Positions 124-30,945 of a stretch of 36,975 bases of DNA are shown here, piece by piece (position 1 is the stretch's first letter; every line of letters starts with the position of its first letter). The position numbers were made by a program, and so were the translations under genes. The notes beneath the pieces were generated by a model that was given only the letters and a program-made list of their open reading frames with translations, had not been told where the DNA came from and ran no database searches. Origin of the DNA: a virus (lineage: Duplodnaviria > Caudoviricetes); the IMG/VR virus record IMGVR_UViG_3300017780_004945, positions 1 through 36,975 of that record. One strand, given 5' to 3'.

Positions 124-517
124 AACGATTGGGAAGATCCTAAACAGTCCTGATTCAAACTTGCCTCATGATCCACGTGTTGTTGGGAGAATTGCGCAGT
201 ACATGCAACATTGCATTAGAAACGAAATCCCCTTCACGCAGGAATCGATTGTTGAAAAAGTAAATGAGGATTTCCGACAGGATTTTACTTCCTTTTTTTC
301 AAAGGCGAGCCCTAAGCAAATGTATGAGATGATAGGCCCTGACAGGGTTAAAGATCTAATGAAGTTTCACGTGGAACTAGCGAGCGGTCCAAAATCAGCG
401 CCAAAACCACAGGCAGTTCAACCCATTCGGCCAGGGTTAAAGAAGAAATACAAGACGATTGACGAGAAAAACGAAGAAGAATTTGGCAGCCGGTACGTTT
501 TCCCTGAAGACTATTAA
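1..517 (+). CDS. Capsid scaffolding protein, C-terminal part (full ORF is 36356..36852 joined to 1..517, 337 aa)
   Basis: The 83..517 track ORF is in frame with an ORF starting at ATG 36356 after an AGGAGAG RBS. It has an acidic N-terminus, a KYQVKVDGLEKEL motif and a charged coiled coil, and it lies between portal and capsid. Confidence 0.8.
   Translation, partial: LEAREQEREAKIKAEQEEKEKAEREQYMQKVTTERKNAIAQTIGKILNSPDSNLPHDPRVVGRIAQYMQHCIRNEIPFTQESIVEKVNEDFRQDFTSFFSKASPKQMYEMIGPDRVKDLMKFHVELASGPKSAPKPQAVQPIRPGLKKKYKTIDEKNEEEFGSRYVFPEDY
363..378. promoter_or_regulatory. parS-like site (ParB-binding palindrome)
   Basis: AGTTTCACGTGGAACT. Its reverse complement AGTTCCACGTGAAACT matches parS TGTTCCACGTGAAACA at all 14 inner positions. 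Confidence 0.65.
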
Positions 518-2371: not shown

Positions 2372-2411
2372 AAAGAGGGGGGTGTTTCCACGTGAAACAT
2401 TCCCCTTTTTT
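2372..2411 (+). terminator. Intrinsic terminator after the capsid gene, with an embedded parS-like site
   Basis: AGGGGGGTGTTTC-CACGT-GAAACATTCCCCT hairpin followed by a T run. Confidence 0.8.
2383..2399. promoter_or_regulatory. Second parS-like site
   Basis: TGTTTCCACGTGAAACA equals canonical TGTTTCACGTGAAACA with one extra base; the last 14 nt match parS exactly. Confidence 0.5.
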
Positions 2412-2944: not shown

Positions 2945-2945
2945 C

Positions 2946-7012: not shown

Positions 7013-7021
7013 GGAGAAAGT

Positions 7022-7327: not shown

Positions 7328-7330
7328 TCC

Positions 7331-11312: not shown

Positions 11313-12679
11313 TGGCATGGGTTTATGATGACAAGAAGAACGAACTGTACGATGATACCAACGGGGTAATTGATCTCTCCGGCGCCGCCGGTTCACCGAC
11401 GGGCACGACTCCAACATCAGGCGTATCGGTAGGATCAAGCCCCAGTCCCACAAGCTCAGGACAATTCACCGACATTAATAAATACTTATCTCTCAACCAG
11501 CCCAAGACTGAAGCTCTTGGCCAAAAGGTAGCAGGTGGGGTCGAGAACACAGTTAACACTGTAGAGAGCGGTCTTTCGGGCGCTCAAAACGAATTCAATC
11601 AGCAGATCGGTCAAGCCGGTCCTCAGATTGCGCAGGATCAATACAACAAACTTGTAAACCCGATGGATCTAGTAGAGTTCACCAAGAATCCGGACAATGT
11701 TTCTAAGTTTCAATCAGACTTTGCAGGTACCTACCAAGGGCCAAGCTCTTTTCAAGACATCAACAACTATGATGATCTCTTTGATTCTTTAGATAAAGCC
11801 AACAAGGTTAAGGATCAGTTTGAAACGTCTGGCGGTCGTCAAGAACTAATTAAAGATGTGTATACCGATCCTTCTCGCGCAAAAGCAGGAATGCTCGGGC
11901 TTGATGAAGCTCTTCTCAATCAAACCCCAAGCGCCTATGCTCCGGTAAAGACACAAGTGGACCGCACGCAGGACTTGCAGGATCGATTCGATCAGATTTC
12001 ACAAAGTTCCTCGCAACAGATTCAAGACACTCAGAAAGCTTTAGCGGAACGATCCAAAGATATTCAAAGTAAATTTCTTGGTGAAGGCGGAATCTACGGA
12101 ACGTTGCAATCCAACATTGATAAACGAGTTCAAGACGTATCTTCGCAGGGCGAGAGAGCTGCTGCTGAGGCTAAAAACTGGCTTGATCCTAATTGGCTGA
12201 GAGCTAACAACAAGATTACAAGCAACACCTTGGGCAACATGATTGTAAAGCAACAAGAAGTTCCGAAAGAAGCTCTTGAGCAAATGGGAATTACTCAAAC
12301 TCAATATGCAAACCTTGTTAACCGATATTTAGAGCCTAAATATTTTCAAGAGAAAATCGATCAAACCCCGCATGAGGGAAGCGCGCTTGACCCCGACTGG
12401 TACAATCAAGCTGGAAACTGGGGAGAATACGTGACGTATGGAACTCCGACGACTGGAAACATTTCCAGGGACACAGTCGCGACGGCGGATGAGTATGCGC
12501 AGCTTGCAGCTCTTGAACAACTAATGGGCGATCAAATTAATGAGAATTTTATCACGACGCCGGACAAAGCAGGGAGCTACAGCAATGACTTCGTTGATTT
12601 CGATTACGATAGACTTTTAGAGTACTTAAAAGACCCAAGATATTTACGGCCTGTCGTATCTTCAGCGGGGCCAATTTAG
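11312..12679 (+). CDS. Probable internal virion (ejection) protein
   Basis: 455 aa, Q/D/N-rich and helical; first of four large genes after the nozzle. Confidence 0.5.
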   Translation: MAWVYDDKKNELYDDTNGVIDLSGAAGSPTGTTPTSGVSVGSSPSPTSSGQFTDINKYLSLNQPKTEALGQKVAGGVENTVNTVESGLSGAQNEFNQQIGQAGPQIAQDQYNKLVNPMDLVEFTKNPDNVSKFQSDFAGTYQGPSSFQDINNYDDLFDSLDKANKVKDQFETSGGRQELIKDVYTDPSRAKAGMLGLDEALLNQTPSAYAPVKTQVDRTQDLQDRFDQISQSSSQQIQDTQKALAERSKDIQSKFLGEGGIYGTLQSNIDKRVQDVSSQGERAAAEAKNWLDPNWLRANNKITSNTLGNMIVKQQEVPKEALEQMGITQTQYANLVNRYLEPKYFQEKIDQTPHEGSALDPDWYNQAGNWGEYVTYGTPTTGNISRDTVATADEYAQLAALEQLMGDQINENFITTPDKAGSYSNDFVDFDYDRLLEYLKDPRYLRPVVSSAGPI

Positions 12680-12694
12680 GTTAGGAGAACTAGT

Positions 12695-13558
12695 ATGGGA
12701 ATCATGTCAGGAATTTTAGATTTAGTTTCAGGGGACTCAGAAGATTACTTTACCAATGTAACGACGCCCAATGTCGAGGACATGAGGCTTAAATTAGACG
12801 AATATGTCTTGCAAGGGCTGATGACGCCCGACGAAGCTCAGTATTTTGCACAAAATCCTAGTGAGTTTGAGCAGATTCAATCCGATCCTCAATTTAAAGA
12901 AGCTCAAATGGCGGCTTTATCTGGACTCCAAGATTATGCAAATGAGGGAGGCTTAAACGCACAAGCAAGAGGGAGGCTAAATGATATCGCGAAAGAAGAA
13001 GGCATCAGGGAACGAGGAGCGCGTGAAGCTGTACTTCAAAATGCGAATGCTCGAGGCGTTGGAGGCTCGGGACTCGAGTTTCTTAGCCAGCTTAAAAACC
13101 AGCAAGAATCCGCATCAAGGCAAAGTGATCGAGATACTCAAGTTGCGGCGGATGCTGAAATGCGAGCCCTAGACGCATTAGTAAGAAGCGGATCGATGGC
13201 GGGAGACATTCGAGGTCAGGACTTTTCGGAGCAAGCACGTAAAGCGGAAGCAATGGACGCGATCAACCGATTTAACACCGGAAACATGATCCAAAATTCT
13301 CAGTTTAATACGGGCATTCGCAATCAGGCGCAGCAATACAACCTTGATACAAAGCAAGGTCTATCCGATGCCAATACGAATATTCGCAATAAGCAGCAGG
13401 GCTACAACAAGGAATTGTTGCAACAGGACTACAACAACAAAATGAGACAAGCCGCAGCTCGCGCAGGTGCATTTACGGAAGACTATGAAAGAAAACGTCG
13501 AGGCGTCGGAGATGTTGAAAAAGGTATAGGCGAAATGTTTAAAGCGGGAGCGTTCTAA
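12695..13558 (+). CDS. Probable ejection (pilot-like) protein
   Basis: Q/A/N-rich helical protein with an ARGVGGSGLE motif; AGGAG RBS. Confidence 0.6.
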   Translation: MGIMSGILDLVSGDSEDYFTNVTTPNVEDMRLKLDEYVLQGLMTPDEAQYFAQNPSEFEQIQSDPQFKEAQMAALSGLQDYANEGGLNAQARGRLNDIAKEEGIRERGAREAVLQNANARGVGGSGLEFLSQLKNQQESASRQSDRDTQVAADAEMRALDALVRSGSMAGDIRGQDFSEQARKAEAMDAINRFNTGNMIQNSQFNTGIRNQAQQYNLDTKQGLSDANTNIRNKQQGYNKELLQQDYNNKMRQAAARAGAFTEDYERKRRGVGDVEKGIGEMFKAGAF

Positions 13559-14817
13559 TGGATCTATTCGACGAAGAAGAATTAAGACGCCAGCAAGCTA
13601 TGCAAGGCCCGAAAGAAGACTTGATGTCGCAAGTACCGACTCAAGAAATGCCTCCGAGTCTTGTTGACATGCTTATTGCTAAATATCCTGAGAGGCTTGC
13701 GGGACTTAAGGCAGATCGAGAGAAACGATTAGCTGAGTTCGACCAAAAGAATGATATCGGCGGCGGATCTCGTTTTCTTGCAGGCATTGCGGGAGCATTA
13801 GGCGCTGGAGATTCAACGGAAATTCTTCAAACCAAACGCAACAACATTCTATCTAAGAGAAAGAACCTAGAGTCTTTGCTCGATCAAGACAGACGCGACG
13901 TTGAAGGCGAGCTTGATTTCGGCAAGACAGCCATTGGCCTTAAGCGTGACGAAACACGGGATCAGCGCGAAGGAATTAAGTTTAAACAAGAGCAAGAAGA
14001 TTACGCAACGGAACGAGATTTGAAGGCCAGGGAAAGTGATCCAAATTCCAAAGAGTCAGCTTTTGCTAACCAATTAGCGAAAGAGATGGGTTACAAAGGT
14101 AGGCCTTTAACAGCTGCGGAGTTCAAAGACAAAAGCAAATACTTTGAAAAAATTTATGACATGAAAGCTAAGGACCGTGACTTCAATCAACAGGAAAGGC
14201 ATTTCAATCAAACACTAGCGCAACGAGCCGCCGATAGAGCCCTACAGCGGGAGAGTAACGCAAAAGAGGATAACTGGCGTAAAATGATGACTATCCAAAA
14301 ATTTGAAGAGGAAGCACCAAAGAGAGCTTACAACAACTTGCCTGAAGAGAAAAAACAAACCATTGAAGGTTTAGCCAAAAAGAATGTCAATAAAGTGGCG
14401 ATTGCGAATCAAATCGATTCTGTCATATCCAACTGGGATTCTTTAACTGAAAGTGAAAAGCTTATTCAGGGTAGGCAGCTTATCAAAACGTTAAACTCAG
14501 CAGAAGGCGCCGATGCGGTAGGTACTGAAGAGGCAAAACGTTTGGGTTCAAACTTAGAATTTGCGATGGGCAATCTAACAAATGATAATCCAATTCAATT
14601 TGGTAGAAATTTAAAAGGGTTTAAGAAACAATCAGAAGACACTTCAAAAGCGATTCGTCGCGCAATTAACATGAACAACGATTTGATCGATGAGGCTTAT
14701 GGTAGGCCTAGATCTAGTGGATCTAAATCTTATGGCGACGATGTGAAAGCTTATGCAGCTAAACATGGCATTTCACTTGAAGCCGCACAAGCGCAAAAAG
14801 ATGCGAGGGGTGGGTAA
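13558..14817 (+). CDS. Probable ejection protein
   Basis: 419 aa charged coiled coil with a Gly/Ala hydrophobic patch (FLAGIAGALGAG). Confidence 0.55.
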   Translation: MDLFDEEELRRQQAMQGPKEDLMSQVPTQEMPPSLVDMLIAKYPERLAGLKADREKRLAEFDQKNDIGGGSRFLAGIAGALGAGDSTEILQTKRNNILSKRKNLESLLDQDRRDVEGELDFGKTAIGLKRDETRDQREGIKFKQEQEDYATERDLKARESDPNSKESAFANQLAKEMGYKGRPLTAAEFKDKSKYFEKIYDMKAKDRDFNQQERHFNQTLAQRAADRALQRESNAKEDNWRKMMTIQKFEEEAPKRAYNNLPEEKKQTIEGLAKKNVNKVAIANQIDSVISNWDSLTESEKLIQGRQLIKTLNSAEGADAVGTEEAKRLGSNLEFAMGNLTNDNPIQFGRNLKGFKKQSEDTSKAIRRAINMNNDLIDEAYGRPRSSGSKSYGDDVKAYAAKHGISLEAAQAQKDARGG

Positions 14818-14821
14818 TTAA

Positions 14822-16468
14822 ATGGCATGGGATGATGAACCACCAGATGCAAAAATATTGGCCAAATCGTCAAACTGGGATGATGAGCCACCGGACCCTA
14901 AAATATTAGAAACAACGTCAAAGCCCAAAAATGATGTTTCTAAGCTTGAATCTTTAGGCCGTGGTGCTGCTCAGGGGGCATCGCTAGGCTTTGGCGACGA
15001 GGGTAGCGGTATTTTAGAGTACGGTATCGGCAAGCTCATGGACAAGATCAAGGGCACCGATGTTTATGACGACGCCTCTTACTCAAAACTCAGAGATGAG
15101 CATCGAAAAGATAATACGTCTTCTAGGGAAGCAAATCCATGGGTTTACGGTTCAGGATCGCTTGTGGGTGGATTGCCTAGTGCGATAGCAACAGGGGGAG
15201 CGACCAAAGCCCCTGCTATGATTGCAGCAGGTACGGGGATGGGTGGTGTCACAGGACTAGGAATGTCAGAGGCAGACACAGCATCTGGCATGGCGAAGGA
15301 TGCCGGAATAGGTGCAGGATTTGGGGCAGCAGGCGCAAGTATCGCTAAGCTTGTCAGTAAATTCGGTCCTGAACTTGTCGCAAAGGTCGCACCAGGCCTT
15401 GCGAAAAAACTTGGAATTGGTGCAGAGAAAATGGCTGTTAATGCCACTGGAGCCACTGCGCTTGAAAAAGCAGATATGAAAACTGGCACAGGTAGGTATT
15501 TATTAGACGAAGGTCAAGTTGGCTGGCTCTCTTCACCTAGAAACATTTACAACAATTCTAAAACATCCATGAAGTCGGCGGGTGAGGGAATTGAATCTGT
15601 GTTAACAAGTTTGGATGAAACGGGAAGCACAGTAGATGCAAATGCTATTTTATCAAAAATTGATGACCAAATTAAAGATCTTTCAAAAAACCCTTCTCAA
15701 GCTTCTGTCGTAAGACAATTAGAAGGTTACAAAGATGACATCTTAAATGCATGGATTGCAACAGCGGGTAAAGGTTTTGCTCCTTCAGAGGCTGAGGCTA
15801 TTAAAAAAGGTTACCAGCAGTTGGCTAAAAATGCCTATGGTGAATTAGGAAGAAAAGAGTCAACAAAGGCTGCAGGTTATATTTTTAGAGAATCTGTAGA
15901 GGATTTGGCTGAAAAAGTAAATCCTAAGGCTGCAGAGGCCTTTCTAAAAGAAAAAAACACTTATGGAATGTTGGCACCCGTTGCAAAGGCTGCAAAGAGA
16001 AGGGCCGACGTTTTAGACCAAAGTCCTTTGGGTGGTCCTGGCGACTTGATGATGGCGGCTGGCGGCGTTCTAGCAACAGGAAACCCTTTGGGCGCATTGG
16101 CACCATTGGCCAGAAGATCTTTAGTTCCTAGACTTCCCTCATTTTTAGCCAAGTCATTGGATGCATCATCTCGTGGGGCTTCAAAATTGCCAGGCATTGT
16201 AAATCAAGCTGCTCCTATGCTGAATGCTCCAATTCAGTCTGGCGTTCGAAGTCAATCTCAATCCGTGATCGAGAACAAAAAGAAGCAAGATCAAAACATA
16301 CCCATTGAGAAAATGGGCAAGTTTTCAAGCTCGCTCATGAAAGCTAAACAGCGCGGCCCTCAAGCGTTAGCCGTGGCAAACTACGTTTTATCAAATAGCA
16401 ATCCTGAATATCGGGAGATGCTTAGACAACAAAAAGAACAAGAAGAAGGAGAGCAATATTATGGCTGA
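14822..16468 (+). CDS. Probable large ejection / DNA-transfer protein
   Basis: Two WDDEPPD motifs at the N-terminus, an RGAAQGASLGFGDE motif and Gly/Ala-rich membrane-like segments typical of podophage ejection proteins. Confidence 0.65.
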   Translation: MAWDDEPPDAKILAKSSNWDDEPPDPKILETTSKPKNDVSKLESLGRGAAQGASLGFGDEGSGILEYGIGKLMDKIKGTDVYDDASYSKLRDEHRKDNTSSREANPWVYGSGSLVGGLPSAIATGGATKAPAMIAAGTGMGGVTGLGMSEADTASGMAKDAGIGAGFGAAGASIAKLVSKFGPELVAKVAPGLAKKLGIGAEKMAVNATGATALEKADMKTGTGRYLLDEGQVGWLSSPRNIYNNSKTSMKSAGEGIESVLTSLDETGSTVDANAILSKIDDQIKDLSKNPSQASVVRQLEGYKDDILNAWIATAGKGFAPSEAEAIKKGYQQLAKNAYGELGRKESTKAAGYIFRESVEDLAEKVNPKAAEAFLKEKNTYGMLAPVAKAAKRRADVLDQSPLGGPGDLMMAAGGVLATGNPLGALAPLARRSLVPRLPSFLAKSLDASSRGASKLPGIVNQAAPMLNAPIQSGVRSQSQSVIENKKKQDQNIPIEKMGKFSSSLMKAKQRGPQALAVANYVLSNSNPEYREMLRQQKEQEEGEQYYG

Positions 16469-16799
16469 AACAACGGGACCGGTAGCGGCACAAAGATTTA
16501 CTGAGGACACCTTAATGGGCGTCTTTGGAACACCCTTAACAACAACTGTAAACGCTTTCGACGCAGCTGTGGCTACGACAGGGTTAGTGACAGCGAAATG
16601 GTATCGATTTGTTGCTACCCAAGATTGTCACATTCTTTTCGCAGCAAGCGGAAATGCAACGACTTCGGATATGTTTTTAAAAGCGGGTGTACCTGAGACG
16701 TTTTACTTAGGTGGAGGTCTTACGCGAGTGTCTGTTATTAAAAACACGACGGGCGGAAATCTTTACATAACCCAAATGCAAACCAATCCAAAAGCATAA
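16461..16799 (+). CDS. Small virion structural protein
   Basis: 112 aa, beta-rich, with an AAGGAG RBS, preceding the large adhesin gene. Confidence 0.55.
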   Translation: MAETTGPVAAQRFTEDTLMGVFGTPLTTTVNAFDAAVATTGLVTAKWYRFVATQDCHILFAASGNATTSDMFLKAGVPETFYLGGGLTRVSVIKNTTGGNLYITQMQTNPKA

Positions 16800-16806
16800 G
16801 GGTGAG

Positions 16807-19302
16807 ATGCCAAGAAACCTTAAGATAACTTCAGGTGGAGGAGCGGTAGCACCTTTTGTATATCCGAAGGCTGGCAACATCGTCTTTCGGCACGATATCT
16901 ACGACGGCGACACGACTGCGCAGGTAGGGTCGTACACTTACTCGCGCACGGGTACGGTGGCGTATGAGAAAAATGCCGAAGTGGTTTCTGTAGGCGCTAA
17001 TGTTCTGCCTATTGGCGCCCAGAAGCTAGGTGGCACTGAAACGATGTCAGGTCTTTACCTGATGGGGCAAATAACAAACTTTCTCCTTTACTCAGAGGAC
17101 TTCGAAAATGCTGTATGGACAGACATAGGAACTCCAACAGTAACACTGCAAGCAACATCAGGCCCTGATGGCGGTCCCGCTTTCTTGATTTCTGGAACAA
17201 CTGCAGGGGATGGGCTTGCGCAAGATTCTGGGCTGTCGACAGGAACAACCTTTCCTCATGTATTTACGTGTTACCTTAAAACCACAACAGGCACGGCAAC
17301 GGCTAGACTTAAGGTAGTGGATGCTAGCGGAGTGAGTGGTACATTTGTTGACTGCCCTTTAACGACAACCTGGAAACGCTTTGAAGTCCCTTATACCTTT
17401 GCTTCTATCTCTACAAGTGTGCGGGTTCAGATTATTGTTAATAGTCAAACCAATATCGTTGCAACCAAGGCGCAACTAGAAAGCTTTAGTAGTGTATCGA
17501 GTGGAAGGCGTGAGCGTTTTTCTACAGCGAACCCGTATGTAAAGACAACCTCTGCCACAGCTTCCAGTGGGAATACTACCTATGAAATTCCCAATGCAGT
17601 GATATCTGGGATTGCCACAAAAGGAACCATATCCCTTTGGATTATGCCTGAGTATGACGGCGTAGATATAACCAATTCAAACGGCTACTTGTTCTCGATT
17701 AATGAGGAAGTTTTTGCAGGGATTCCTCGTAAATCGGAGGGAATGCTCTTTAAGATTAATGGGACAGATACGGTTAGTTCTAACACCCATGCAGTTTATT
17801 ATATGAGCCCTCATGTGTGGAATCATTACGTATATACCTGGGATACAGGGACAGATACATATTCTATGTACCGCAATGGGGAGCTTCAACAAACATCCAA
17901 CAATGTTTTATCTGCCATAAATATTGGAGCAAACAACCTGTACATAGGTAGAAACTCCGTGAACTTAGCGTACGTCCATGCGGATATGATTTTCTCAGAG
18001 ATCCTTATTTGGGATGAGCCATTGAATGCAACGGAAGCTTTAGAAATGTATAACCATAAGGCGCCTGCAGCAATTCTCGCAGGGCCAGGAACGGGTAAGA
18101 TCTTTAGCGTTACCTTATCTAACTCCCCTGTCCCTACCATTGGCGATACCAAGTATTTCCTTGGTCACAGAATGTCAGGGCAACCGTATTATTACGATTC
18201 TCCCACAACCATGAAACAGTTTAACCCGATTGATTATGCTGCCCCAGCGTATCCCTTGGGAGGGTACAATAAGGGAGGCTTGCAGTTCTTTGGGCAGAAC
18301 ACAAACTACATCTTGCAGAGTGAAGCGCCTGGAACAACCTGGACGGCGGTCGGCGCACCAACGATTACCAATAGTGTTGGAACATTCCTTGGAACACTTA
18401 GCTATGGAACCATTAATGGAGTTAGCGGCGAAGGAATACAACAATCTGCCACCTTTGTTTCTGCAAATGATGAGTGTGTAGGCTCATGTTTTGTGTCAGT
18501 AGCTTCGGGAACACTTGATTTTACGATTGGGCTAGAAGGAGACAGTGGGGGTACGCCTGAAAGTTCAAATCAAACATTTACAGCCACAACCACACCCCAA
18601 AGATTCTCTTTTTACAAATCATTTACAGGCGCAGCGACAGGCAATGTAAGGCTTAAGATTCTACTCGCGGCCACAGGAACCCTACGAATCTCAGGGATGA
18701 TGCTAGAACGTGAGAACGACGGTCCTCCTACTCCATTTGCTAAAAACGCTCAGGATTACATTAAAACAACTACAACGACTCAAACCACAGGCAATAGCTA
18801 CGGGTATTACCGTATGCAAAATTCAATCAACATGCTTAAAGGAACCATTATTGCGTGGGGCTTTCTGTATGTGAAGAACCCTGACGACTTTATAGCTGCA
18901 AACGGTCCGACCATTTTAGGGATGCCAGGGCAATACAATGATGGCTTTTACTTTCACCACGAAATTGATGCGTTAGATTTTATCTACACGTCGATTGCGA
19001 ACCGCTACACGCCTTTTACTTCGGACCGAAACATTTGGTACCACTATGCAATTGCGTACGATGCCACGGGTGGCACACCTGACTATAGGTTGTATAGAGA
19101 TGGGGTTCTGCTTCAGCAAACAAATTCGGCTGTAACCTTAAAGTTGTGGCCTAGATTTGGTTTAATCGGAGGCGATTTACTCGGTGGCAATCATGACCAT
19201 TGGCAGGGAGCCATCGACACATTAGACATTTACGGATCAGCGATATCAACGGCCGATATTCTAGCTGATTTTAACGCAACCAAGGCCGCGTACGGAAAGT
19301 AA
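16807..19302 (+). CDS. Receptor-binding / fibre protein with two [carbohydrate-binding-like + LamG] modules
   Basis: Paired motifs: TNFLLYSEDF/TNYILQSE, PYVKTT/DYIKTT, KGTISLW/KGTIIAW, WNHYVYTWD/WYHYAIAYD, MYRNG/LYRDG. Confidence 0.75.
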   Translation: MPRNLKITSGGGAVAPFVYPKAGNIVFRHDIYDGDTTAQVGSYTYSRTGTVAYEKNAEVVSVGANVLPIGAQKLGGTETMSGLYLMGQITNFLLYSEDFENAVWTDIGTPTVTLQATSGPDGGPAFLISGTTAGDGLAQDSGLSTGTTFPHVFTCYLKTTTGTATARLKVVDASGVSGTFVDCPLTTTWKRFEVPYTFASISTSVRVQIIVNSQTNIVATKAQLESFSSVSSGRRERFSTANPYVKTTSATASSGNTTYEIPNAVISGIATKGTISLWIMPEYDGVDITNSNGYLFSINEEVFAGIPRKSEGMLFKINGTDTVSSNTHAVYYMSPHVWNHYVYTWDTGTDTYSMYRNGELQQTSNNVLSAINIGANNLYIGRNSVNLAYVHADMIFSEILIWDEPLNATEALEMYNHKAPAAILAGPGTGKIFSVTLSNSPVPTIGDTKYFLGHRMSGQPYYYDSPTTMKQFNPIDYAAPAYPLGGYNKGGLQFFGQNTNYILQSEAPGTTWTAVGAPTITNSVGTFLGTLSYGTINGVSGEGIQQSATFVSANDECVGSCFVSVASGTLDFTIGLEGDSGGTPESSNQTFTATTTPQRFSFYKSFTGAATGNVRLKILLAATGTLRISGMMLERENDGPPTPFAKNAQDYIKTTTTTQTTGNSYGYYRMQNSINMLKGTIIAWGFLYVKNPDDFIAANGPTILGMPGQYNDGFYFHHEIDALDFIYTSIANRYTPFTSDRNIWYHYAIAYDATGGTPDYRLYRDGVLLQQTNSAVTLKLWPRFGLIGGDLLGGNHDHWQGAIDTLDIYGSAISTADILADFNATKAAYGK

Positions 19303-23265: not shown

Positions 23266-23470
23266 ACTTGTAAAACCCGAGTGGAATTATAAGGGAACCG
23301 TTCTGGATGACAACAGAAATGTTTTCAAGCAACTCGAAGGCGACGACTCGTATGCGTGTATGCAGAAGGCGAGAATTCTGGAAGTGTTTACGGAATTAAA
23401 CCGATGTGACTACGCGCGCAAAAGTCTTATCAAATTAATTGATGCGGCGAACACAGAAGATAAAAAATAA
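23156..23470 (+). CDS. Putative outer-membrane spanin lipoprotein (Rz1-like)
   Basis: ATG 23156 after AAGGA gives MKNLLLKSKFCKPVMIFLLISLISC with lipobox LISC. It overlaps the inner spanin in another frame. Confidence 0.65.
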   Translation: MKNLLLKSKFCKPVMIFLLISLISCSKRYVTSCPLSKLVKPEWNYKGTVLDDNRNVFKQLEGDDSYACMQKARILEVFTELNRCDYARKSLIKLIDAANTEDKK

Positions 23471-23471
23471 A

Positions 23472-23480
23472 TGCTATAAT
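23472..23480 (+). promoter_or_regulatory. Extended -10 promoter
   Basis: TGcTATAAT, a perfect extended -10, 11 nt upstream of ATG 23492, implying a nearly leaderless mRNA. Confidence 0.6.
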
Positions 23481-23491
23481 CTTTTTGACTT

Positions 23492-23704
23492 ATGCAAAGA
23501 CGCACGTATTGTCATGACGTGGCTTACAAACCTTCCATTGTGTTGGATGTGCATAACATTGATCGAATGGTCACAAGTCATTTAGGCGAAGACTACACTT
23601 TAATTATCACTAAAAACAGCGAGCGCATTACTGTGCATATGCCGATACAGGAATGCAGGGCGCGTTTCTTTCGCGTCAAATGGGAAGATGCGGAGGAGGA
23701 ATGA
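23492..23704 (+). CDS. Hypothetical protein
   Basis: 70 aa, coupled to the next ORF by ATGA. Confidence 0.55.
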   Translation: MQRRTYCHDVAYKPSIVLDVHNIDRMVTSHLGEDYTLIITKNSERITVHMPIQECRARFFRVKWEDAEEE

Positions 23705-23910
23705 AGAGTCGTATGAATGGGAATGTTAAATGGGCAAAGGGAGCCATTCATAGAGACGTGTTTTCGATGTCGGACATGAGATCGCAAGAAAGAAAAATAG
23801 AATGTGACGCCTGTCATGTTATTTACACAAAAACAAATAGACGTGTGGTTTATCCAAGTGGAAAATATCAAATTTGTGAAAAATGTTGGCGAAAGGAGCT
23901 AAGCCGATGA
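23701..23910 (+). CDS. Small zinc-finger protein
   Basis: GGAGG RBS before ATG 23701; CDAC...CEKC motif. Confidence 0.6.
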   Translation: MKSRMNGNVKWAKGAIHRDVFSMSDMRSQERKIECDACHVIYTKTNRRVVYPSGKYQICEKCWRKELSR

Positions 23911-24014
23911 GCTTTGAGAGATTTGCAGCGTATGTTCTGGCCGGGGTAGTGATGATTGGGTGTATCGGGGTGACGATTATTTCGCTTATTTTGGATAGGC
24001 GCAAGGATCGCTGA
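23907..24014 (+). CDS. 35-aa membrane microprotein
   Basis: Hand-translated as MSFERFAAYVLAGVVMIGCIGVTIISLILDRRKDR; AAGGAG RBS and ATGA coupling. Confidence 0.55.
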   Translation: MSFERFAAYVLAGVVMIGCIGVTIISLILDRRKDR

Positions 24015-24054
24015 AAGTTAGACAAGAGTTAGAAGCTGTGCAAAGCTTTTGTCA

Positions 24055-24219
24055 ATGAAAAAATGCATGACACTCACGCTGGAATCTGGCCAGCTCATAA
24101 CAATTCAAGAATCAGATAAGCAAGGGTACTTTCAACTCAAGATTGATGATGTGATTGCGCCCTTAAACCGGAAAGAGTCGGAAATCGTAACCAACACTCT
24201 GGACAACTTCCTTGGCTAA
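24055..24219 (+). CDS. Hypothetical protein (54 aa)
   Basis: Hand-translated as MKKCMTLTLESGQ...LDNFLG; TAATG overlap with the next ORF. Confidence 0.5.
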   Translation: MKKCMTLTLESGQLITIQESDKQGYFQLKIDDVIAPLNRKESEIVTNTLDNFLG

Positions 24220-24779
24220 TGAATCGCTCCAAGATCAACACACGTCAACGCCGTAACAAAGCTTTCTCACTTTTAAATCAACCTTTACCTGTCACTATTC
24301 CCGAAGCGCCCGTGAAACCTGAGTTTCAGGATACCTATACACAAATGGGATACCCCGTAAACCACGGCCTCCAATACGAGGAACCCTTAGAAGATACCAT
24401 GGATCGCGAGCTAAATAGTATCTCTGCGTCAGACGTTCCCGTACCAGGGGGGAGTTACATTACCGACTACGACGGCATACAGCTAACGATCAGTAAGCTG
24501 TCGATGGCGTTTATGAACGCTCGGAGTAGGCTAGAATGGGCTGGGCACACAATCTCAACCCAAGAGAAGGCCCTTTACGAGAAAGAACGCCTATTGGCCG
24601 ACATTCAAGGAATTAAGACACCTCCAAGGCCACCCAAGGCCCCATTTTTCACAGAACCGACCAATGCGGGTGAGATCATCATGGTAACGCGAGAAGTCGC
24701 AAATCGTTTTGGAATGATCGCGGTAGGAACTGCGGCAGGTTCATTTTTTTTGTTTTTTTTGTGGAAACTCTTTTTTTGA
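24219..24779 (+). CDS. Hypothetical protein with a C-terminal membrane anchor
   Basis: 186 aa; ends in FGMIAVGTAAGSFFLFFLWKLFF. Confidence 0.6.
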   Translation: MNRSKINTRQRRNKAFSLLNQPLPVTIPEAPVKPEFQDTYTQMGYPVNHGLQYEEPLEDTMDRELNSISASDVPVPGGSYITDYDGIQLTISKLSMAFMNARSRLEWAGHTISTQEKALYEKERLLADIQGIKTPPRPPKAPFFTEPTNAGEIIMVTREVANRFGMIAVGTAAGSFFLFFLWKLFF

Positions 24780-25049
24780 GAATAGAGGGCTTATAAGGCC
24801 GTGCATCCCCTCGGGTACGGCTGTTATCTGTTGAAGCACTATTGTTGCACTCATCCTTCAGTTCCGCGCCTTGAATTTAGCTTAAAGCAGCTATGCACCT
24901 CGCAGAACCGTCGAAAGGCTTTATGTTGTGGCCGCCCCATTCGAACTTCACCTATTGCCCTCAACTAGGTGGCGTGCACTGCTCCTCACAGCGTCGATAT
25001 GAACCGTTAAGCCTATTGAGTATCTTTTTAAGGTGAAAGTTCTCAAAAA
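24773..25049. ncRNA. Candidate ~280-nt structured RNA or ssDNA element (strand unresolved)
   Basis: Closing stems TTTTTGAGAA/TTCTCAAAAA and GGCTTA/TAAGCC enclose several nested helices found by hand; no ORF of 60 aa or more. Confidence 0.55.
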
Positions 25050-25069
25050 CATAACCTTGCTTTTTTTTC

Positions 25070-25097
25070 TTGAATCTCTGAAATTTGTTGATACAGT
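25070..25097 (+). promoter_or_regulatory. Promoter of the candidate small RNA
   Basis: TTGAAT, 16-bp spacer, TACAGT with a TGn extension and a T-rich upstream tract. Confidence 0.55.
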
Positions 25098-25102
25098 GGA
25101 AC

Positions 25103-25190
25103 TGCATCATTTCATAAATCCAAATTTTTAAGCAATTGGAATTTATTACGGAAAGAAGAGGGACTCAAGAAATTGGGTCCTTTTTTTTTT
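25103..25190 (+). ncRNA. Candidate ~85-nt small RNA
   Basis: Bounded by the 25070-25097 promoter and a strong terminator. Internal hairpin ATAAATCCAA/TTGGAATTTAT; no ORF. Confidence 0.5.
25161..25190 (+). terminator. Intrinsic terminator
   Basis: GGACTCAA-GAAA-TTGGGTCC (8-bp stem with one G-U and a GAAA loop) followed by T10. Confidence 0.85.
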
Positions 25191-25288
25191 GTTATCAACC
25201 TAAGTAAGCGTAATTACGAGCAATGGCGCTCTTCCCTGAATGAAATGGGGTTTATCCCCTGTAATGAAGGGAAGAGCAACTAGAGGGC

Positions 25289-25337
25289 GGTACTTAGCAA
25301 GCAGGATTAAGCGTTGTTAAGTACCTTGCTTTTTTTT
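25289..25337 (+). terminator. Terminator-like hairpin
   Basis: GGTACTTAGCAA/TTGTTAAGTACC 12-bp stem (one G-U) followed by TTGC and T8. Confidence 0.5.
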
Positions 25338-25446
25338 AATAAAAAGTTTGCAAACATCATTACGTTGTGGTGAAGTGTTTATATCGAGTCAATCAAGACT
25401 CAACCGACGCCTCAAGGTTGTAGAGGCACTGGAAACAGGAGTTAAC

Positions 25447-25557
25447 ATGAAACAACAAACCAAAGATATTCTAGACGCAACACTGGGAGCTATTATTGTA
25501 GTAGCGACGTGCGTTTTCTTTTTTATAATCGTGCACGCGATGGAGGTGCTGTCATGA
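25447..25557 (+). CDS. 36-aa membrane microprotein, first early gene
   Basis: AGGAG RBS before ATG 25447; MKQQTKDILDATLGAIIVVATCVFFFIIVHAMEVLS. Confidence 0.6.
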   Translation: MKQQTKDILDATLGAIIVVATCVFFFIIVHAMEVLS

Positions 25558-25907
25558 AACTAAAACTAGACATTACCATTGAAGAAGAACAGTCCTCTAA
25601 GGGAATTGAGTCCCTTTTAGATATTGAGCACGATGTAATGGGTATCGTTGAAAAGCAGTCGCAGGGTGACATTAAGTATATGGCGCTGGCGCTAAATAAT
25701 CTGTGTGAGATCAGTAAAGCCGACAGACACGAATTGGAGTTCTTTGTTAACGAATTAAACGAGATGATTCAAGATCAACTCAAAGAGAGGGTTCAAGACG
25801 CTCTGTATAAGGTGTACCCGGTTAGCTCGATGGCGGCCGATGATCCAAATTACGAGTACCCGCTCTATATTAAAAACATTAACTGGAAGGTGTGCGATGA
25901 GTTCTAA
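25554..25907 (+). CDS. Hypothetical protein
   Basis: GGAGG RBS and ATGA coupling at 25554. Confidence 0.6.
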   Translation: MKLKLDITIEEEQSSKGIESLLDIEHDVMGIVEKQSQGDIKYMALALNNLCEISKADRHELEFFVNELNEMIQDQLKERVQDALYKVYPVSSMAADDPNYEYPLYIKNINWKVCDEF

Positions 25908-26088
25908 AAGAACCTTTGATAATCTCTTGAAAAGATTTTGGGGAGAAGAACAACCAAAAAAAGAAACCGCTTCGACGGAGCCTACAATGGATGATTTTAT
26001 ACGCCTAAAGAATAAACTGGCGGAGGACTTTCAAGCGTATGAGAAGAGCCGCGAGAAGTGGATTAATGGTACCCGAGGGGAGGAATAA
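25897..26088 (+). CDS. Hypothetical protein
   Basis: MSSKRTF..., with an AAGG RBS; coupled to the next ORF. Confidence 0.55.
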   Translation: MSSKRTFDNLLKRFWGEEQPKKETASTEPTMDDFIRLKNKLAEDFQAYEKSREKWINGTRGEE

Positions 26089-26345
26089 TGCCTTCTAAAA
26101 ACTACAAATGGCAAAAGGAATGGACCGTGGATCTAGATAGGTGCACAGCTAAACACAAGGACGGACTCTTGTTCAATGTGGACGAAGACCAAAACGGCGA
26201 GCTGGAGTGCTCCATTGAGCTGAAGGGCGAGTCTTGGAATTACTACACGATGAAGCGCGAGTCTCTTTCAAAAGATCAATTCGAAGAGCATTTAGGAAAA
26301 CTACAACGACAAGCGAAAGAAATATTTAAAGCAAAATATAAATAA
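26088..26345 (+). CDS. Hypothetical protein
   Basis: 85 aa; GGAGG RBS. Confidence 0.6.
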   Translation: MPSKNYKWQKEWTVDLDRCTAKHKDGLLFNVDEDQNGELECSIELKGESWNYYTMKRESLSKDQFEEHLGKLQRQAKEIFKAKYK

Positions 26346-26395
26346 AAGTTGTTTTTTTTAATGATAAACATAATGTCATAACGTGAAAGGATGCA

Positions 26396-27046
26396 ATGAA
26401 CGAATTAATTATACCAAGCGAACTTAAAGAACTCAGCCTTTGCTCAAGAGCGTTTTCGTATACAATTGAAAACGAACAAGACGTAATAGGCGCAAGCCAC
26501 TTGCTTTCGGAGTTTGCAGAGAAAAAGAAACTGTTTGAAAATCTGCGCGAGATGTTTATCCGCCCTATTAAGCGAGTGATGGCAAAGAAAGAGGAAGAGA
26601 TTCGAGAAGCGGCTAGGCCATTTGAAGAAGCGGATCAAGAACTTCGAAAGCGCATTGCTAAATACATGGACAGATCACGCGCTGAAAAGATTAGGCTTGC
26701 GGAAATTGAAAAGCAAAAACAAATCGAGTCTCAAAAAGAAAAGATTGAGGAGCTTACGAAAGTAGAATTAATCACAGGTGAGAAATCTATTTTAGCGCCT
26801 TTAGTGCAAGCCAACATTTCTGCACTAGAAAACATGGACATAAATGATATGCGGCAGTCTGTAAGAACGCCGCAAGGAATGGTTTCCCAAAGTTTAGTGT
26901 GGAAGTGGGAAGTGCAAGACAGCTCTTTAATTCCTCGTGATTTTTTTATCGTGGATGAAAAGAAAATAGAGACAAATTGTAAATCAGGACAACGTGATGT
27001 GCCTGGAATTAGATACTGGCAAGAAAGTAGAGTGAGTGTAAAATGA
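26396..27046 (+). CDS. Coiled-coil recombination-associated protein (Gam/Gp157-like)
   Basis: Long coiled coil ending in WKWEVQDSSLIPRDFFIVDEKKI...VPGIRYW; located before the ERF gene. Confidence 0.55.
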   Translation: MNELIIPSELKELSLCSRAFSYTIENEQDVIGASHLLSEFAEKKKLFENLREMFIRPIKRVMAKKEEEIREAARPFEEADQELRKRIAKYMDRSRAEKIRLAEIEKQKQIESQKEKIEELTKVELITGEKSILAPLVQANISALENMDINDMRQSVRTPQGMVSQSLVWKWEVQDSSLIPRDFFIVDEKKIETNCKSGQRDVPGIRYWQESRVSVK

Positions 27047-27768
27047 GCGAAATTGAAAACCAAGAAATGATGATGTCCCCAACTCTAGGAGAACTTGCAA
27101 AAGCTCTCTCTAAAGCGCAGGCCGCTATGAATCCGGCTCTTAAAGACACAACAAATCCATTCTTTAAATCTAAATATGCAGACCTTGCTTCAATATGGCA
27201 AGCGGCACAAAAGCCTCTCACAGATCAAGGTTTGTGCGTTGTGCAGCAGATTGGAAACGATGGAGAAAATATAACGATGACGACGATGCTGCTTCATTCG
27301 TCGGGTGAGTGGATCCGGAGTATTGTGAAAGCGATGCCCGGAAAGAAAGATCCTCAAAGTTTAGGATCAACAGCAACGTATCTTCGCCGCTATGGCCTCA
27401 GCGCTTTGGTAGGGATATCCACGGAAGATGATGACGGTAACGCTGGTTCTCGCGCAGACGAATACAGCTCGAAGATATTTCCAACACCAAAAACGCAAGG
27501 AGAGCCCACAAGGTTTCAAAAGGAATTAAGCGCAATTCATCGAGATGAAGAAACGAGATCTCTTCTTACGTCTGTAGCTGATACAATCCTCGGGAAGTTC
27601 TCGCCCTTTTATAACAACAAAGACGCGGCAGCTTCTTATGTTAAAGAAAAAACAGGGAAGATGCTTCGAGAATTAAACGCAGTAGAATTGGAGCAATTGC
27701 AGGTTGATTTTCTAAAAGAGTATTTCCCTCCTAGTAATGTGGTGGAAGAACAGAAGGAGATGTTTTAA
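27043..27768 (+). CDS. erf: ERF-family single-strand annealing protein
   Basis: NPFFKSKYADLASI, TMLLHSSGEWI and PQSLGSTATYLRRYGLSALVGISTEDDDGN. Confidence 0.92.
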   Translation: MSEIENQEMMMSPTLGELAKALSKAQAAMNPALKDTTNPFFKSKYADLASIWQAAQKPLTDQGLCVVQQIGNDGENITMTTMLLHSSGEWIRSIVKAMPGKKDPQSLGSTATYLRRYGLSALVGISTEDDDGNAGSRADEYSSKIFPTPKTQGEPTRFQKELSAIHRDEETRSLLTSVADTILGKFSPFYNNKDAAASYVKEKTGKMLRELNAVELEQLQVDFLKEYFPPSNVVEEQKEMF

Positions 27769-28168: not shown

Positions 28169-28308
28169 ATAAACGAGACCTCTTCGTCGCAGCGTTAGTA
28201 TGTGTGTGGCTCGCGCTGGTTGTTATCTTTATTTCAAGGCCTCGAGAGAGTAAAATCATTCGGGTGGATATTGGACCGGTGGAAATTGTCAGGGATGGGC
28301 AGAAATGA
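28165..28308 (+). CDS. 47-aa membrane microprotein
   Basis: Hand-translated as MNKRDLFVAALVCVWLALVVIFISRPR...; ATGA coupling on both sides. Confidence 0.55.
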   Translation: MNKRDLFVAALVCVWLALVVIFISRPRESKIIRVDIGPVEIVRDGQK

Positions 28309-28562
28309 GACAAACCTCACTAGAAGCTAAAGAATCGATTAGGCCTATGGTCAATCGGTTGGCGGCAATTGTTCTTGAGATTATAGAATCTTCTAGAACA
28401 TTGGGAAAAACCTGCGATGAGATTGAAGAAGTTTCAAAACTAAAGCATCAAACTGTAAGCGCAAGAGTGAGAGAACTTTTTCAGAAAGGGTTGATTGAAG
28501 ATAGTGGCGGGCGAAGGGCGACACGTTCAGGGCGTAGGGCAATTGTGTGGGTGGTTAAATGA
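28305..28562 (+). CDS. Winged-helix DNA-binding protein
   Basis: KTCDEIE...HQTVSARVRELFQKGLIEDSG.RR.TRSGR.AIVW pattern. Confidence 0.75.
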   Translation: MRQTSLEAKESIRPMVNRLAAIVLEIIESSRTLGKTCDEIEEVSKLKHQTVSARVRELFQKGLIEDSGGRRATRSGRRAIVWVVK

Positions 28563-29353: not shown

Positions 29354-29679
29354 AAATGGATGAATATCAGAAGAAAGCATTCGAGTTTAACAACGTATCC
29401 GAGGAGGCATCTCTCTTTCACTCTTTAACAGGCCTTGTTGAAGAAGTGGGTGAACTCGCAGGCAAGTTTAAGCGCCTCTCAAGGGGGGACTTTGAAAACA
29501 TCAGCGATACAGACTTCAACGTCGAGATAAGAAAAGAGATTGGCGATGTGCTTTGGTACGTGGCAGACTTTTGCACAACTCATGGCTTCTCACTTGAAGA
29601 GGTCGCCAAGAATAACCTAGAGAAGCTTACAGATCGTAAAACGCGCGGGGTGATTAAGGGAAAAGGGGATAAGAGATGA
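29350..29679 (+). CDS. mazG: MazG-like nucleotide pyrophosphohydrolase
   Basis: GLVEEVGELAGK...KEIGDVLWYVA...NLEKL.DRK.RGVIKG.GD.R (EExxE/ExxD motif). Confidence 0.88.
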   Translation: MKMDEYQKKAFEFNNVSEEASLFHSLTGLVEEVGELAGKFKRLSRGDFENISDTDFNVEIRKEIGDVLWYVADFCTTHGFSLEEVAKNNLEKLTDRKTRGVIKGKGDKR

Positions 29680-29954
29680 GATGCCCTACAAGGTCCGATA
29701 AAGATCCTCAAGAAATGCGTGAGAGAAACTATCGAATTTTATACTTAGCGTGTCGAGGGTGTACTTTAGCAGAGATTTCTAGTGTTGTGAAAGTCTCAAA
29801 AAGGAGTGTAGCTGTTACCATAAACAGGCTTCGCATAGCTAACCCAGATTTGCAGCCATTTTTAAGAGAGTATCGCGCACACCCTTCTAAACCGATAAAT
29901 TGGGTAAATCGTGAAACGTTTTATTTTAAGGAGTTTACTTATGAAGGCAATTAG
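29676..29954 (+). CDS. HTH DNA-binding protein
   Basis: RN..I..L...GCTLAEISSVVKVSKRSVAVTINRL, a sigma-region-4/LuxR-like helix-turn-helix. Confidence 0.65.
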   Translation: MRCPTRSDKDPQEMRERNYRILYLACRGCTLAEISSVVKVSKRSVAVTINRLRIANPDLQPFLREYRAHPSKPINWVNRETFYFKEFTYEGN

Positions 29955-30114
29955 ACGACAAGTATTTATAGAATTTCTTGAAGAGAAAATTGCGGAATCT
30001 AAAGAAGGAAGAGATAGAGCTATTGAAGCAAATGTAGGAAACTCAGCGGCTTGTTATGTTGCCGCTATGATTGCTTTTCAAGAAGTTTTGAATTTTATTA
30101 ATGAGAATGGGTGA
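29941..30114 (+). CDS. Hypothetical protein
   Basis: AAGGAG RBS before ATG 29941. Confidence 0.55.
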   Translation: MKAIRRQVFIEFLEEKIAESKEGRDRAIEANVGNSAACYVAAMIAFQEVLNFINENG

Positions 30115-30416
30115 TGTTTATGAAAAAGTGCACAATGTGCGGCAAAGAAATCATGGATGAAATTGAAAAAATTAAAGAGGATATGAAGGGAACGCCCTAT
30201 GTATTAAATTTGTCACACCTTGTTGAGGATGTTAACCAGATCGTTAAAAAATACGATCTGGTTCGACGCACAGGCTTAGGTGAGAATGAGTTAACAAGGC
30301 ACCTTACAAAGATGCTCGACGACTTCCAGCAGACTCTGTATTGGCATAGATGTTTTAAAGTGAGACGCGCGGAAGGTAATAATGAAGATAGTATTGTCTT
30401 TGCCACCCCTTCTTAA
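30111..30416 (+). CDS. Hypothetical protein with a split Cys/His motif
   Basis: KCTMCGKEI...WHRCF, a possible zinc-binding site. Confidence 0.55.
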   Translation: MMFMKKCTMCGKEIMDEIEKIKEDMKGTPYVLNLSHLVEDVNQIVKKYDLVRRTGLGENELTRHLTKMLDDFQQTLYWHRCFKVRRAEGNNEDSIVFATPS

Positions 30417-30738
30417 CCGACTGTATAGAATCTCAGGCGGTAGGTTCTACAAGAACCAGGAAGCCATTCGCTACAAGAACGAATGCGCCTACACCATCCG
30501 AAAGATTCTTAAGCAGCCTACAGATGACTTGCTAGAACTAAATATCAAATGGTATCGAAAAGCTCTTAGGGGAGATATTGATGCAATCTTAAAGTGTTTC
30601 CTAGACGCCCTTGAGGGGATTTTGTGGGAAAATGATTCTCAGATCATGAAGATCACCATCGAAAAGCTACATGACAAAAACAACCCTCGAATTGAACTTG
30701 AATGTATTAAATTTAAAAAACTAGACGCTGATGAATAA
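30382..30738 (+). CDS. rusA: RusA-like Holliday junction resolvase
   Basis: LPPLLNRLYR...GDIDAILKCFLDALEGILWENDSQI...NPRIE. Confidence 0.85.
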   Translation: MKIVLSLPPLLNRLYRISGGRFYKNQEAIRYKNECAYTIRKILKQPTDDLLELNIKWYRKALRGDIDAILKCFLDALEGILWENDSQIMKITIEKLHDKNNPRIELECIKFKKLDADE

Positions 30739-30756: not shown

Positions 30757-30945
30757 GTGTTAGATATGGAAGATGTAAAACCTAGAAAGACGATTTATTC
30801 GTTTTATATCACGGATGAAATGCGTTCGCAGCTAAAGCAGCAAGCGAAAAAGCGGATGAGTTCGCAGTCTGACATCGTACGCTCCGCTATTGCTAAAGAG
30901 TTAAACGGAAACGCTTCAACCATGAAAATCATTAAAAAGAGGTAA
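30757..30945 (+). CDS. Ribbon-helix-helix (CopG/Arc-like) regulator
   Basis: IYSFYITDEMRSQLKQQAKKRMSSQSDIVRSAI. Confidence 0.75.
   Translation: MLDMEDVKPRKTIYSFYITDEMRSQLKQQAKKRMSSQSDIVRSAIAKELNGNASTMKIIKKR

What the first reader, a model, noticed from the sequence alone, without database searches (positions are those of the whole stretch)
24745..25446. Candidate new system: phage replicon with no Rep protein, RNA-primed and antisense-controlled
Seen: a complete genome with no recognisable polymerase, primase, helicase, initiator, SSB, integrase or CI. Its one large non-coding block contains T/A tracts, a ~280-nt folded domain, a rightward ~85-nt promoter-terminator unit and a possible leftward promoter (TTGACT-17-CACAAC, 25392 to 25364). 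Established: ColE1-type replicons encode no initiator; a long folded primer RNA is controlled by a short antisense RNA overlapping its 5' part and is processed near an A tract. Inference: the same logic here, with a ~430-600-nt leftward RNA ending at the A tracts and opposed by the small RNA. Together with the parS sites this would give a phage or phage-plasmid maintained by cis elements and host proteins. I see architectural analogy only, not sequence homology to ColE1.
Basis: partly seen in the sequence, partly recalled or inferred. Interest (0 to 1): 0.8.

Follow-up and report, generated by a model that had tools for sequence, protein, structure and literature searches.

The report
Complete phage lacking any replication gene
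This complete 36.9-kb phage genome has no recognisable replication gene, so it likely copies its DNA with host enzymes; its one large non-coding block holds predicted rightward RNA hairpins and is a likely but untested origin, but shows no sign of the proposed ColE1-type antisense control.

Summary
Half of the finding holds. The genome is a closed 36,852-bp circle in two sequencing runs. None of its ORFs matches a polymerase, primase, helicase, initiator, SSB or integrase. Its only large gap is 24780-25446 (667 nt).

The ColE1 reading fails on its details:
- The '280-nt folded domain' folds no better than shuffles (z +0.98 and -0.35).
- The terminal A tracts are Phe codons of a conserved membrane protein.
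- The leftward promoter is chance-grade.
- The ~85-nt RNA would cover positions 168-252 of the supposed primer, not its 5' end.
- Hairpin wobble pairs favour rightward RNA.

The right half looks like an early control cassette: promoter, small RNA, two terminators and a repeated operator-like palindrome. The left 270 nt is unexplained.

Of 34 related phage records, 7 also show no recognisable replication gene. In four of them a 0.7-1 kb non-coding block sits where kin carry initiator genes. None aligns with this block. A host-run, probably transcription-primed origin here is plausible but untested. RNA-based phage origins are already described in mycobacteriophages.

The parts
24219..24779 (+). 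186-aa protein: long helix (likely coiled coil) plus C-terminal hydrophobic helix. The T tracts 24744-24777 are its Phe/Leu codons. Not initiator-like.
   Evidence: 12 homologs at E<=1e-3 aligned to the last residue; AlphaFold model H83-130, H158-185; no fold match at E<=0.001 in BFVD
24780..25446 (.). Largest non-coding gap of the genome (667 nt)
   Evidence: no long frame under table 11, TAG=Q or TGA=W
24780..25050 (.). GC-richer (about 0.48), unstructured, unexplained segment; candidate host-dependent origin (inferred)
25019..25046 (-). Best leftward promoter-like site (TTGAGA-16-GATACT, 9/12). It would read through the 270-nt segment, divergent from the small RNA and not overlapping it.
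   Evidence: consensus match only
25070..25097 (+). Rightward promoter-like site TTGAAT-16-TACAGT with extended -10 TG
   Evidence: consensus match only
25104..25190 (+). Predicted small RNA of about 85 nt: AU-rich hairpin plus intrinsic terminator (core stem 25160-25180, T10 25181-25190)
   Evidence: fold z -4.86 on +, -1.63 on -; no Rfam family
25228..25277 (+). Strong hairpin (10-bp outer stem, inner GGGG/CCCC)
25282..25337 (+). Second hairpin with T8 tail, terminator-like; G-U wobble only on the + strand
   Evidence: 25200-25337: z -6.06 on +, -4.98 on -
25354..25365 (.). Operator-like near-palindrome (10/12 to ACGTCATGACGT); related sites at 23509, 26373 and 30738
   Evidence: motif derived from these sites, so its statistics are biased
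25364..25392 (-).
26396..27768 (+). Recombination pair: phrog_10477-like coiled-coil protein (weak hit) and Erf single-strand annealing protein
30382..30738 (+). RusA resolvase
30757..30945 (+). Ribbon-helix-helix (CopG/Arc/ORF56-like) repressor; candidate binder of the operator-like sites (inferred)
364..377 (.). parS-like core GTTTCACGTGGAAC inside the scaffold gene
2384..2399 (.). Imperfect parS-like palindrome forming the terminator stem after the capsid gene

Best explanation
This complete phage has no recognisable replication gene and likely replicates with host enzymes; the 667-nt block is likely its early control region, with a predicted rightward promoter, small RNA, terminators and operator in its right half and a likely host-run origin in its unexplained left 270 nt. 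Most likely mechanism (inferred, untested): host RNA polymerase, starting from the AT-rich promoter patch at 25019-25097, opens or primes the left segment, and host restart proteins load the host replisome. Later rounds would run by recombination using phage Erf and RusA. Control would come from a phage ribbon-helix-helix repressor on the repeated operator, not from an RNA I-type antisense RNA. Shown: completeness, absence of detectable Rep, hairpins, coding T tracts, recurrence of Rep-less relatives. Inferred: every step of transcription, priming and repression, and the host (Bdellovibrionota-like).
For: Closed circle in two runs. No replication hit in three HMM libraries, by tblastn with 18 replication, SSB or integrase proteins of relatives (best E in the window 0.58), by phmmer with 13 initiator-like or candidate proteins on six frames, or with PF14297/PF13730 read through stops. 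Initiator-like proteins of relatives are mostly 185-350 aa; the unexplained early ORFs of 150 aa or more here look helical (186 aa; 154 aa with weak SMC-type hits). 7 of 34 related records also show no recognised replication gene. G002 is sister to the Bdellovibrio prophage G023 (support 99) and, like its close relative G439, has a ~700-nt gap at the head of the operon where G023 has initiator-like and loader-like genes. The window, G002 and G439 share a layout: a ~250-300-nt GC-richer stretch, an AT-rich patch, then hairpins. Hairpins 25104-25337 fold better on +. Operator-like sites sit at four transcription-unit starts.
Against: No RNA or replication data. The block aligns with no relative's block, and even G002 and G439 (mostly 79-91% identical) do not keep theirs (z 0.7), which is odd for an essential element. 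In G439 part of the GC-richer stretch does fold on the - strand (z -4.1), unlike here. Here the block lies upstream of the recombination genes, not at the usual initiator position. No GC-skew inflection marks it. HMMs miss most initiator-like proteins of this clade (0 PHROG hits for 5 of them; 0 NCBIfam hits for all tested), so HMM silence is weak evidence. Several ORFs of 60-126 aa stay unexplained, and the fold of 518-898 failed (pLDDT 40). Non-coding gaps of similar size also appear in relatives that do have replication genes (crude gene caller).
Confidence: 0.42

Rival explanations
1. A small, unrecognised phage protein is the initiator (candidates: winged-helix 28305-28562, HTH 29676-29954, 25554-25907, 30111-30416, 518-898). 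The block is then purely regulatory or holds that protein's origin.
For: HMM libraries miss real-looking initiators in this clade. 28305-28562 belongs to a widespread phage winged-helix family of unknown function. 25554-25907 has no match.
Against: All are 62-126 aa, shorter than initiator-like proteins of relatives. The winged-helix family also occurs in G005, which has its own primase and helicase. No iteron-like repeats near them.
Confidence: 0.22
2. The block is only a control region. Replication starts elsewhere or in another way: host DnaA at scattered boxes, or Erf-made D-loops restarted by host PriA.
For: All defined features of the block are transcriptional. Erf and RusA are present. 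The block is not conserved. 7 near-match DnaA boxes lie in 23.0-24.0 kb.
Against: The DnaA-box excess is matched by another 1-kb bin and there is no cluster in the block. Recombination alone gives no first round from a single circle (established knowledge). The left 270 nt stays unexplained.
Confidence: 0.2
3. The phage lost its replication module and depends on a co-infecting helper phage, or is a defective derivative.
For: Replication modules are swapped freely across the clade; loss of initiator genes in G002 relative to G023.
Against: Full structural and lysis sets, no gene remnants, and the identical genome is present in at least 3 freshwater runs from different studies with half or more of the words. 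The Rep-less state recurs in several lineages.
Confidence: 0.1
4. One reading: a 430-600-nt leftward primer RNA from 25392-25364 ends at the A tracts and is inhibited by the ~85-nt antisense RNA, as in ColE1.
For: No Rep; sizes resemble RNA II (~550) and RNA I (108) (PMC5703827 passage). The two RNAs would be convergent and overlap. The whole leftward RNA folds with z -3.93. The operator-like site abuts the leftward -10 as the sites at 26373 and 30738 abut their rightward -10s.
Against: That z comes from the palindromic hairpins of the right half, which fold better on +. The 3' half is unstructured. The end tracts are coding. The promoter is chance-grade. The overlap is at +168 to +252. No G-run above 4. 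No RNAI or other Rfam match above chance, no plasmid match.
Confidence: 0.06

Closest known systems
RNA-based (non-RepA) origins of cluster A mycobacteriophage prophages, Wetzel et al. 2020, PMC7157519 (read: abstract, passages, Discussion)
   Same: Phage without an initiator gene; a 400-500-bp non-coding region is the candidate origin; host enzymes do the priming.
   Different: There the RNA is shown by RNA-seq, lies beside phage-encoded parABS and serves prophage maintenance; those phages also carry their own lytic replication genes (recalled). Here there is no ParA/ParB, the parS-like sites are 12-14 kb away, no replication gene is recognised at all, and nothing is shown experimentally.
ColE1-type replicons (RNA II primer, RNA I antisense), as summarised in PMC5703827 (passages read)
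   Same: No initiator protein; a non-coding block with convergent promoter-like sites and a short terminated RNA.
   Different: No sequence match, no folded primer domain, wrong overlap position, no G-rich tract, and the end tracts are coding.
P22-like podophages related to Bdellovibrionales prophages (G022, G023, G024) and Silvanigrella phage CP017838
   Same: Homologous terminase, portal, capsid and tail genes in similar order (25-43% identity).
   Different: Most carry PolA plus primase, primase plus helicase, or an initiator-like gene; this one and 7 of 34 relatives show none.
Duplodnaviruses that lack almost all replication genes (PMC11348598; only the start of the abstract seen in a search listing)
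   Same: Reliance on host replication machinery is a recognised state.
   Different: How such phages initiate without any initiator was not addressed in what I saw.

Membership tests
ColE1-type replicon | No element-encoded initiator | tested here: met
   (limits: HMMs miss initiators in this clade)
ColE1-type replicon | Sequence or Rfam similarity to RNA I / RNA II | tested here: not met
ColE1-type replicon | ~550-nt primer RNA folded along its length | tested here: not met
   the 3' 280 nt folds like shuffles; the overall z comes from + strand hairpins
ColE1-type replicon | Antisense RNA complementary to the 5' end of the primer (5'-end position recalled) | tested here: not met
   overlap would be +168 to +252; with the better leftward site at 25046 there is no overlap
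ColE1-type replicon | G-rich tract needed for the persistent hybrid (recalled) | tested here: not met
   longest G-run on either strand is 4
ColE1-type replicon | R-loop, RNase H cleavage, PolA dependence | not testable with these tools
   no RNA run holds the stretch; needs experiment
RNA-based mycobacteriophage prophage ori | Non-coding RNA next to phage-encoded parA/parB/parS | tested here: not met
   no ParA/ParB; parS-like sites 12-14 kb away
RNA-based mycobacteriophage prophage ori | Transcribed region necessary and sufficient for replication | not testable with these tools
   needs cloning and deletion
DnaA-dependent oriC-like origin | Cluster of DnaA boxes beside an unwinding element | tested here: not met
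   no exact TTWTNCACA in the gap; one near box at 24760 in the upstream ORF (consensus recalled)
Lambdoid O/P-type or RepA phage-plasmid replicon | Initiator gene with iterons | tested here: not met
Phage-plasmid partitioned by host ParB | Functional parS | tested here: inconclusive
   4 sites within 1 mismatch of GTTTCACGTGAAAC in 3 of 35 genomes against 0.3 expected from base shuffles; binding untested; B. bacteriovorus has ParABS (PMC11318664 passages)

The most novel reading that the evidence does not exclude
A recurring class of tailed phages of predatory bacteria has discarded all replication genes and starts even lytic replication from a non-coding, transcript-primed origin run wholly by host enzymes. 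This block is one such origin, and the ~430-nt helix-closed element shared by G003 and G436 is another.
Probability: 0.22. Interest if true: 0.75.

Novelty: new variant of a known kind. Interest (0 to 1): 0.42.

Why it matters
Tailed phages nearly always bring at least an initiator. A complete 37-kb phage with none, plus several relatives in the same state, makes the question 'how does a Rep-less dsDNA phage start replication?' testable on a 0.7-kb fragment. A positive result would extend RNA-based phage origins beyond mycobacteriophage prophage maintenance and could give a minimal replicon for Bdellovibrionota genetics. If a small ORF is the initiator, that is a new initiator family. As it stands the origin is unproven and the ColE1 analogy is not supported, hence a moderate score.

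Tried and rejected
- Rfam: no gathering-score hit in the window; 9 hits at E<=10 in 23400-26500, best E 0.61, all far below cut-off. No tRNA or tmRNA.
- BLASTn of the block: no useful match in phages (one 42-nt hit in 9 Lak genomes, E 0.4), none in plasmids, and only short T-rich hits in 25 of 401 Bdellovibrionota-phylum genomes.
- A hidden or recoded Rep in the gap: six frames and TAG=Q / TGA=W give no frame over about 96 aa in the gap. A 'GYGCYLL' look-alike of the Lin1244 motif did not score with PF14297.
- Loci for the 186-aa family were not found in viral contigs, in 24 and 23 related records or in 401 genomes. The orthologous block of close kin could therefore not be compared.
- No RNA holder listed; this is no evidence either way.
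- The small RNA has no stand-out trans target in the genome: best non-self duplex -24.8, with several others within 2 kcal/mol.
- No sigma-28-type promoter in the block.
- A 20-nt likeness to G006 was within shuffle range.
- G009 was first counted as Rep-less (label); it has PolA and a primase.
- Single-sequence fold of 518-898 unusable.
- Earlier-findings look-ups gave nothing relevant.
- Literature searches found no description of this phage group's replication; the library lacks most subscription papers. Supplements were not read; those of PMC7157519 may hold ori RNA sequences worth comparing.

Full report
WHAT THE WINDOW IS. The window is a whole phage genome with a 123-nt end repeat. Run X1 holds a 36,882-nt contig opened at another point that matches 1-18100 with no difference. 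Run X2 has one contig covering 15010-36975 and running on to 6478, with exactly 18,752 letters between 18100 and 1. The circle is 36,852 bp and nothing is missing at the join. Either run may be the source of this DNA. A third study (X3) has a contig identical over 24282-25066. All annotated genes are on +: portal (P22-like), terminase, capsid, tail proteins, M15 endolysin, Erf, MazG, RusA, and HTH/RHH regulators. The only phage-collection relative for the capsid protein is the Silvanigrella phage CP017838. 3 of 5 terminase loci in the genome collection are Bdellovibrionales, so a Bdellovibrionota host is likely (inference).

IS THERE REALLY NO REPLICATION GENE? None was found. 61 ORFs were scanned against PHROGs and Pfam and 30 small ones against NCBIfam. 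18 replication, SSB and integrase proteins of relatives gave no tblastn hit below E 0.5 in the window. 13 initiator-like or candidate proteins gave no phmmer hit on six frames except one at E 0.5 in a late gene. PF14297 and PF13730 read through stops gave none; note that PF13730 also failed to ring in G001, which has an HTH initiator-like gene. No long frame opens in the gap under TAG=Q or TGA=W. The largest unexplained early protein, 24219-24779, has 12 homologs and models as a long helix plus a hydrophobic C-terminal helix, with no fold match. The caveat is real: initiator-like proteins of this clade often score nothing in these libraries, and several ORFs of 60-126 aa remain unassigned.

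ANATOMY OF THE BLOCK. The gap runs 24780-25446, 667 nt; the next largest is 177 nt. The T tracts at 24744-24777 lie inside the 186-aa gene and encode its Phe-rich end, which all homologs keep. They need no role as a processing site. The left part, 24780-25060, folds no better than shuffles on either strand (z +0.98, -0.35). The right part is clearly structured. A TG-extended promoter-like site at 25070-25097 is followed by about 85 nt with a terminator (z -4.86 on +, -1.63 on -). Two hairpins at 25228-25277 and 25282-25337 follow, the second ending in T8 (z -6.06 on +, -4.98 on -). G-U wobbles in two stems exist only on +, which points to rightward RNA. A near-palindrome (10 of 12 to ACGTCATGACGT) lies at 25354. 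3 of the 5 best genome-wide matches (23509, 25354, 26373) sit at starts of early units; a weaker one (30738) precedes the RHH gene. A related pattern has 4 matches against a shuffle mean of 0.31. The motif was derived from these sites, so this is a lead.

THE COLE1 MODEL. The proposed leftward promoter is there but scores 8/12 without the last T. Such sites occur at 7 per kb, and the block has 5. An RNA from it would fold with z -3.93, but this comes from the palindromic right half. The small RNA would pair with positions 168-252 of it, whereas RNA I covers the 5' end of RNA II (recalled; sizes and roles in PMC5703827 passage). There is no G-run above 4, no Rfam RNAI hit and no plasmid match. 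The best leftward site is 25046-25019 (9/12). It would transcribe the left segment divergently and would not overlap the small RNA. The parS-like sites (364-377, 2384-2399) are far from the block and no ParA/ParB is encoded. Such sites are enriched in the group, 4 in 3 of 35 genomes against 0.3 expected, so use of host ParB is possible but untested.

RELATIVES. Terminase and portal profiles gave loci in viral contigs and genomes. I fetched 34 records of 28-56 kb whole or nearly whole, plus 3 prophage stretches. I left out fragments, hits at 28% terminase identity or less, three 74-88-kb phages and G010. Of the 34:
- 18 have a polymerase, primase, replicative helicase or initiator/loader by HMM or by BLAST to HMM-labelled proteins.
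- 7 have an initiator-like, RepA-like or PolA-like ORF by weak HMM, mutual homology or motif judged by eye.
- 2 have only an SNF2 helicase.
- 7 show nothing recognised: G002, G003, G006 (81% complete), G018 (high GC, hard to call), G431, G436 (one unexplained 206-aa ORF) and G439.
These are distant kin (terminase about 25-40%); the close clade (P0002-P0009) had no long DNA in reach. In a quick terminase tree G002 is sister to the Bdellovibrio prophage G023 (support 99). G023 has initiator-like and loader-like genes at the head of the operon leading to methylase, resolvase and terminase. G002 and its close relative G439 have a ~700-nt gap there. G003 and G436 have 0.7-1 kb gaps between recombination genes and the late-early genes. 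The window, G002 and G439 share a layout of GC-richer stretch, AT-rich patch and hairpins. Against an essential conserved element: none of these blocks aligns with the window's, and G002 and G439 barely align with each other there. G003 and G436 share a colinear ~430-450-nt element closed by a 7-bp helix (best of 56 comparisons, z 4.8). It has no third copy in the loci held, no hit in the window, no Rfam family and no phage-collection match.

MECHANISM AND PRIOR ART. A phage with no initiator must start from a host-read cis element, a tiny unknown protein, or a helper. I favour a host-run origin in the left part of the block, opened or primed by host RNA polymerase from the neighbouring promoter patch, followed by Erf/RusA recombination-driven rounds, with control by an RHH repressor (confidence 0.42; all functional steps inferred). 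Rivals: cryptic small initiator 0.22, origin elsewhere or by DnaA/recombination 0.20, helper dependence 0.10, ColE1-type antisense pair 0.06. Wetzel et al. 2020 (PMC7157519; abstract, passages and Discussion read) already showed that non-RepA mycobacteriophage prophages replicate from a transcribed non-coding region beside parABS and drew the ColE1 comparison. PMC11348598 (abstract start only) notes that some tailed phages lack almost all replication genes. What could be new is a group of phages using such an origin with no replication gene at all.

VERDICT. Observation partly confirmed; interpretation partly supported; new variant of a known kind at most; interest 0.42.

Noticed in passing
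L201:12179-12611 (G436) and L062:16090-16536 (G003): Colinear ~430-450-nt non-coding element closed by a GGGCGC/GCGCCC helix in two relatives with no recognised replication gene; candidate new structured RNA or origin; no Rfam match, only two copies.
   Followed up: partly
window 23509, 25354, 26373, 30738: Repeated operator-like near-palindrome at starts of early units and before the RHH gene.
   Followed up: partly
window 364-377; L066:8568 (G006); L082:10197 (G019): Chromosome-type parS cores in phages that show no ParA/ParB, at least two inside coding sequence; more than shuffles give.
   Followed up: partly
G024:C4:33229-35133 (L051): Portal gene of a prophage-like region in a Bdellovibrionales MAG has 7 in-frame TAG codons, suggesting TAG recoding.
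   Followed up: no
L063:1067-1124 and 2255-2307 (G003): Two twister-P5 ribozymes flank a DUF932 gene.
   Followed up: no
L066:1361 (- strand, G006); similar at L087:3776 and L088:9058 (G023): Near-perfect sigma-28-type promoter (TAAAGTTA-11-GCCGATAA in G006; consensus recalled) ahead of small leftward genes.
   Followed up: no
L055:7971-9155 (G004): 394-aa ORF with PolA-like catalytic motifs by eye but no hit in Pfam, PHROGs or NCBIfam; the only replication candidate of a 31-kb complete phage.
   Followed up: partly
L059:3126-3980 (G008): RepA_C-like protein (weak Pfam hit) in a complete relative, suggesting a phage-plasmid.
   Followed up: partly
window 24219-24779: Unnamed conserved family (12 homologs) of coiled-coil, membrane-anchored early phage proteins.
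   Followed up: partly
window 899-1075: 177-nt non-coding leader before the capsid gene; no Rfam hit; relatives have gaps at the same place.
   Followed up: no
L195 around 13900-15900 (G431): Rep-less relative with long repeated units and a tandem array of ~20-nt repeats in its non-coding early region; possible iteron-like origin.
   Followed up: no
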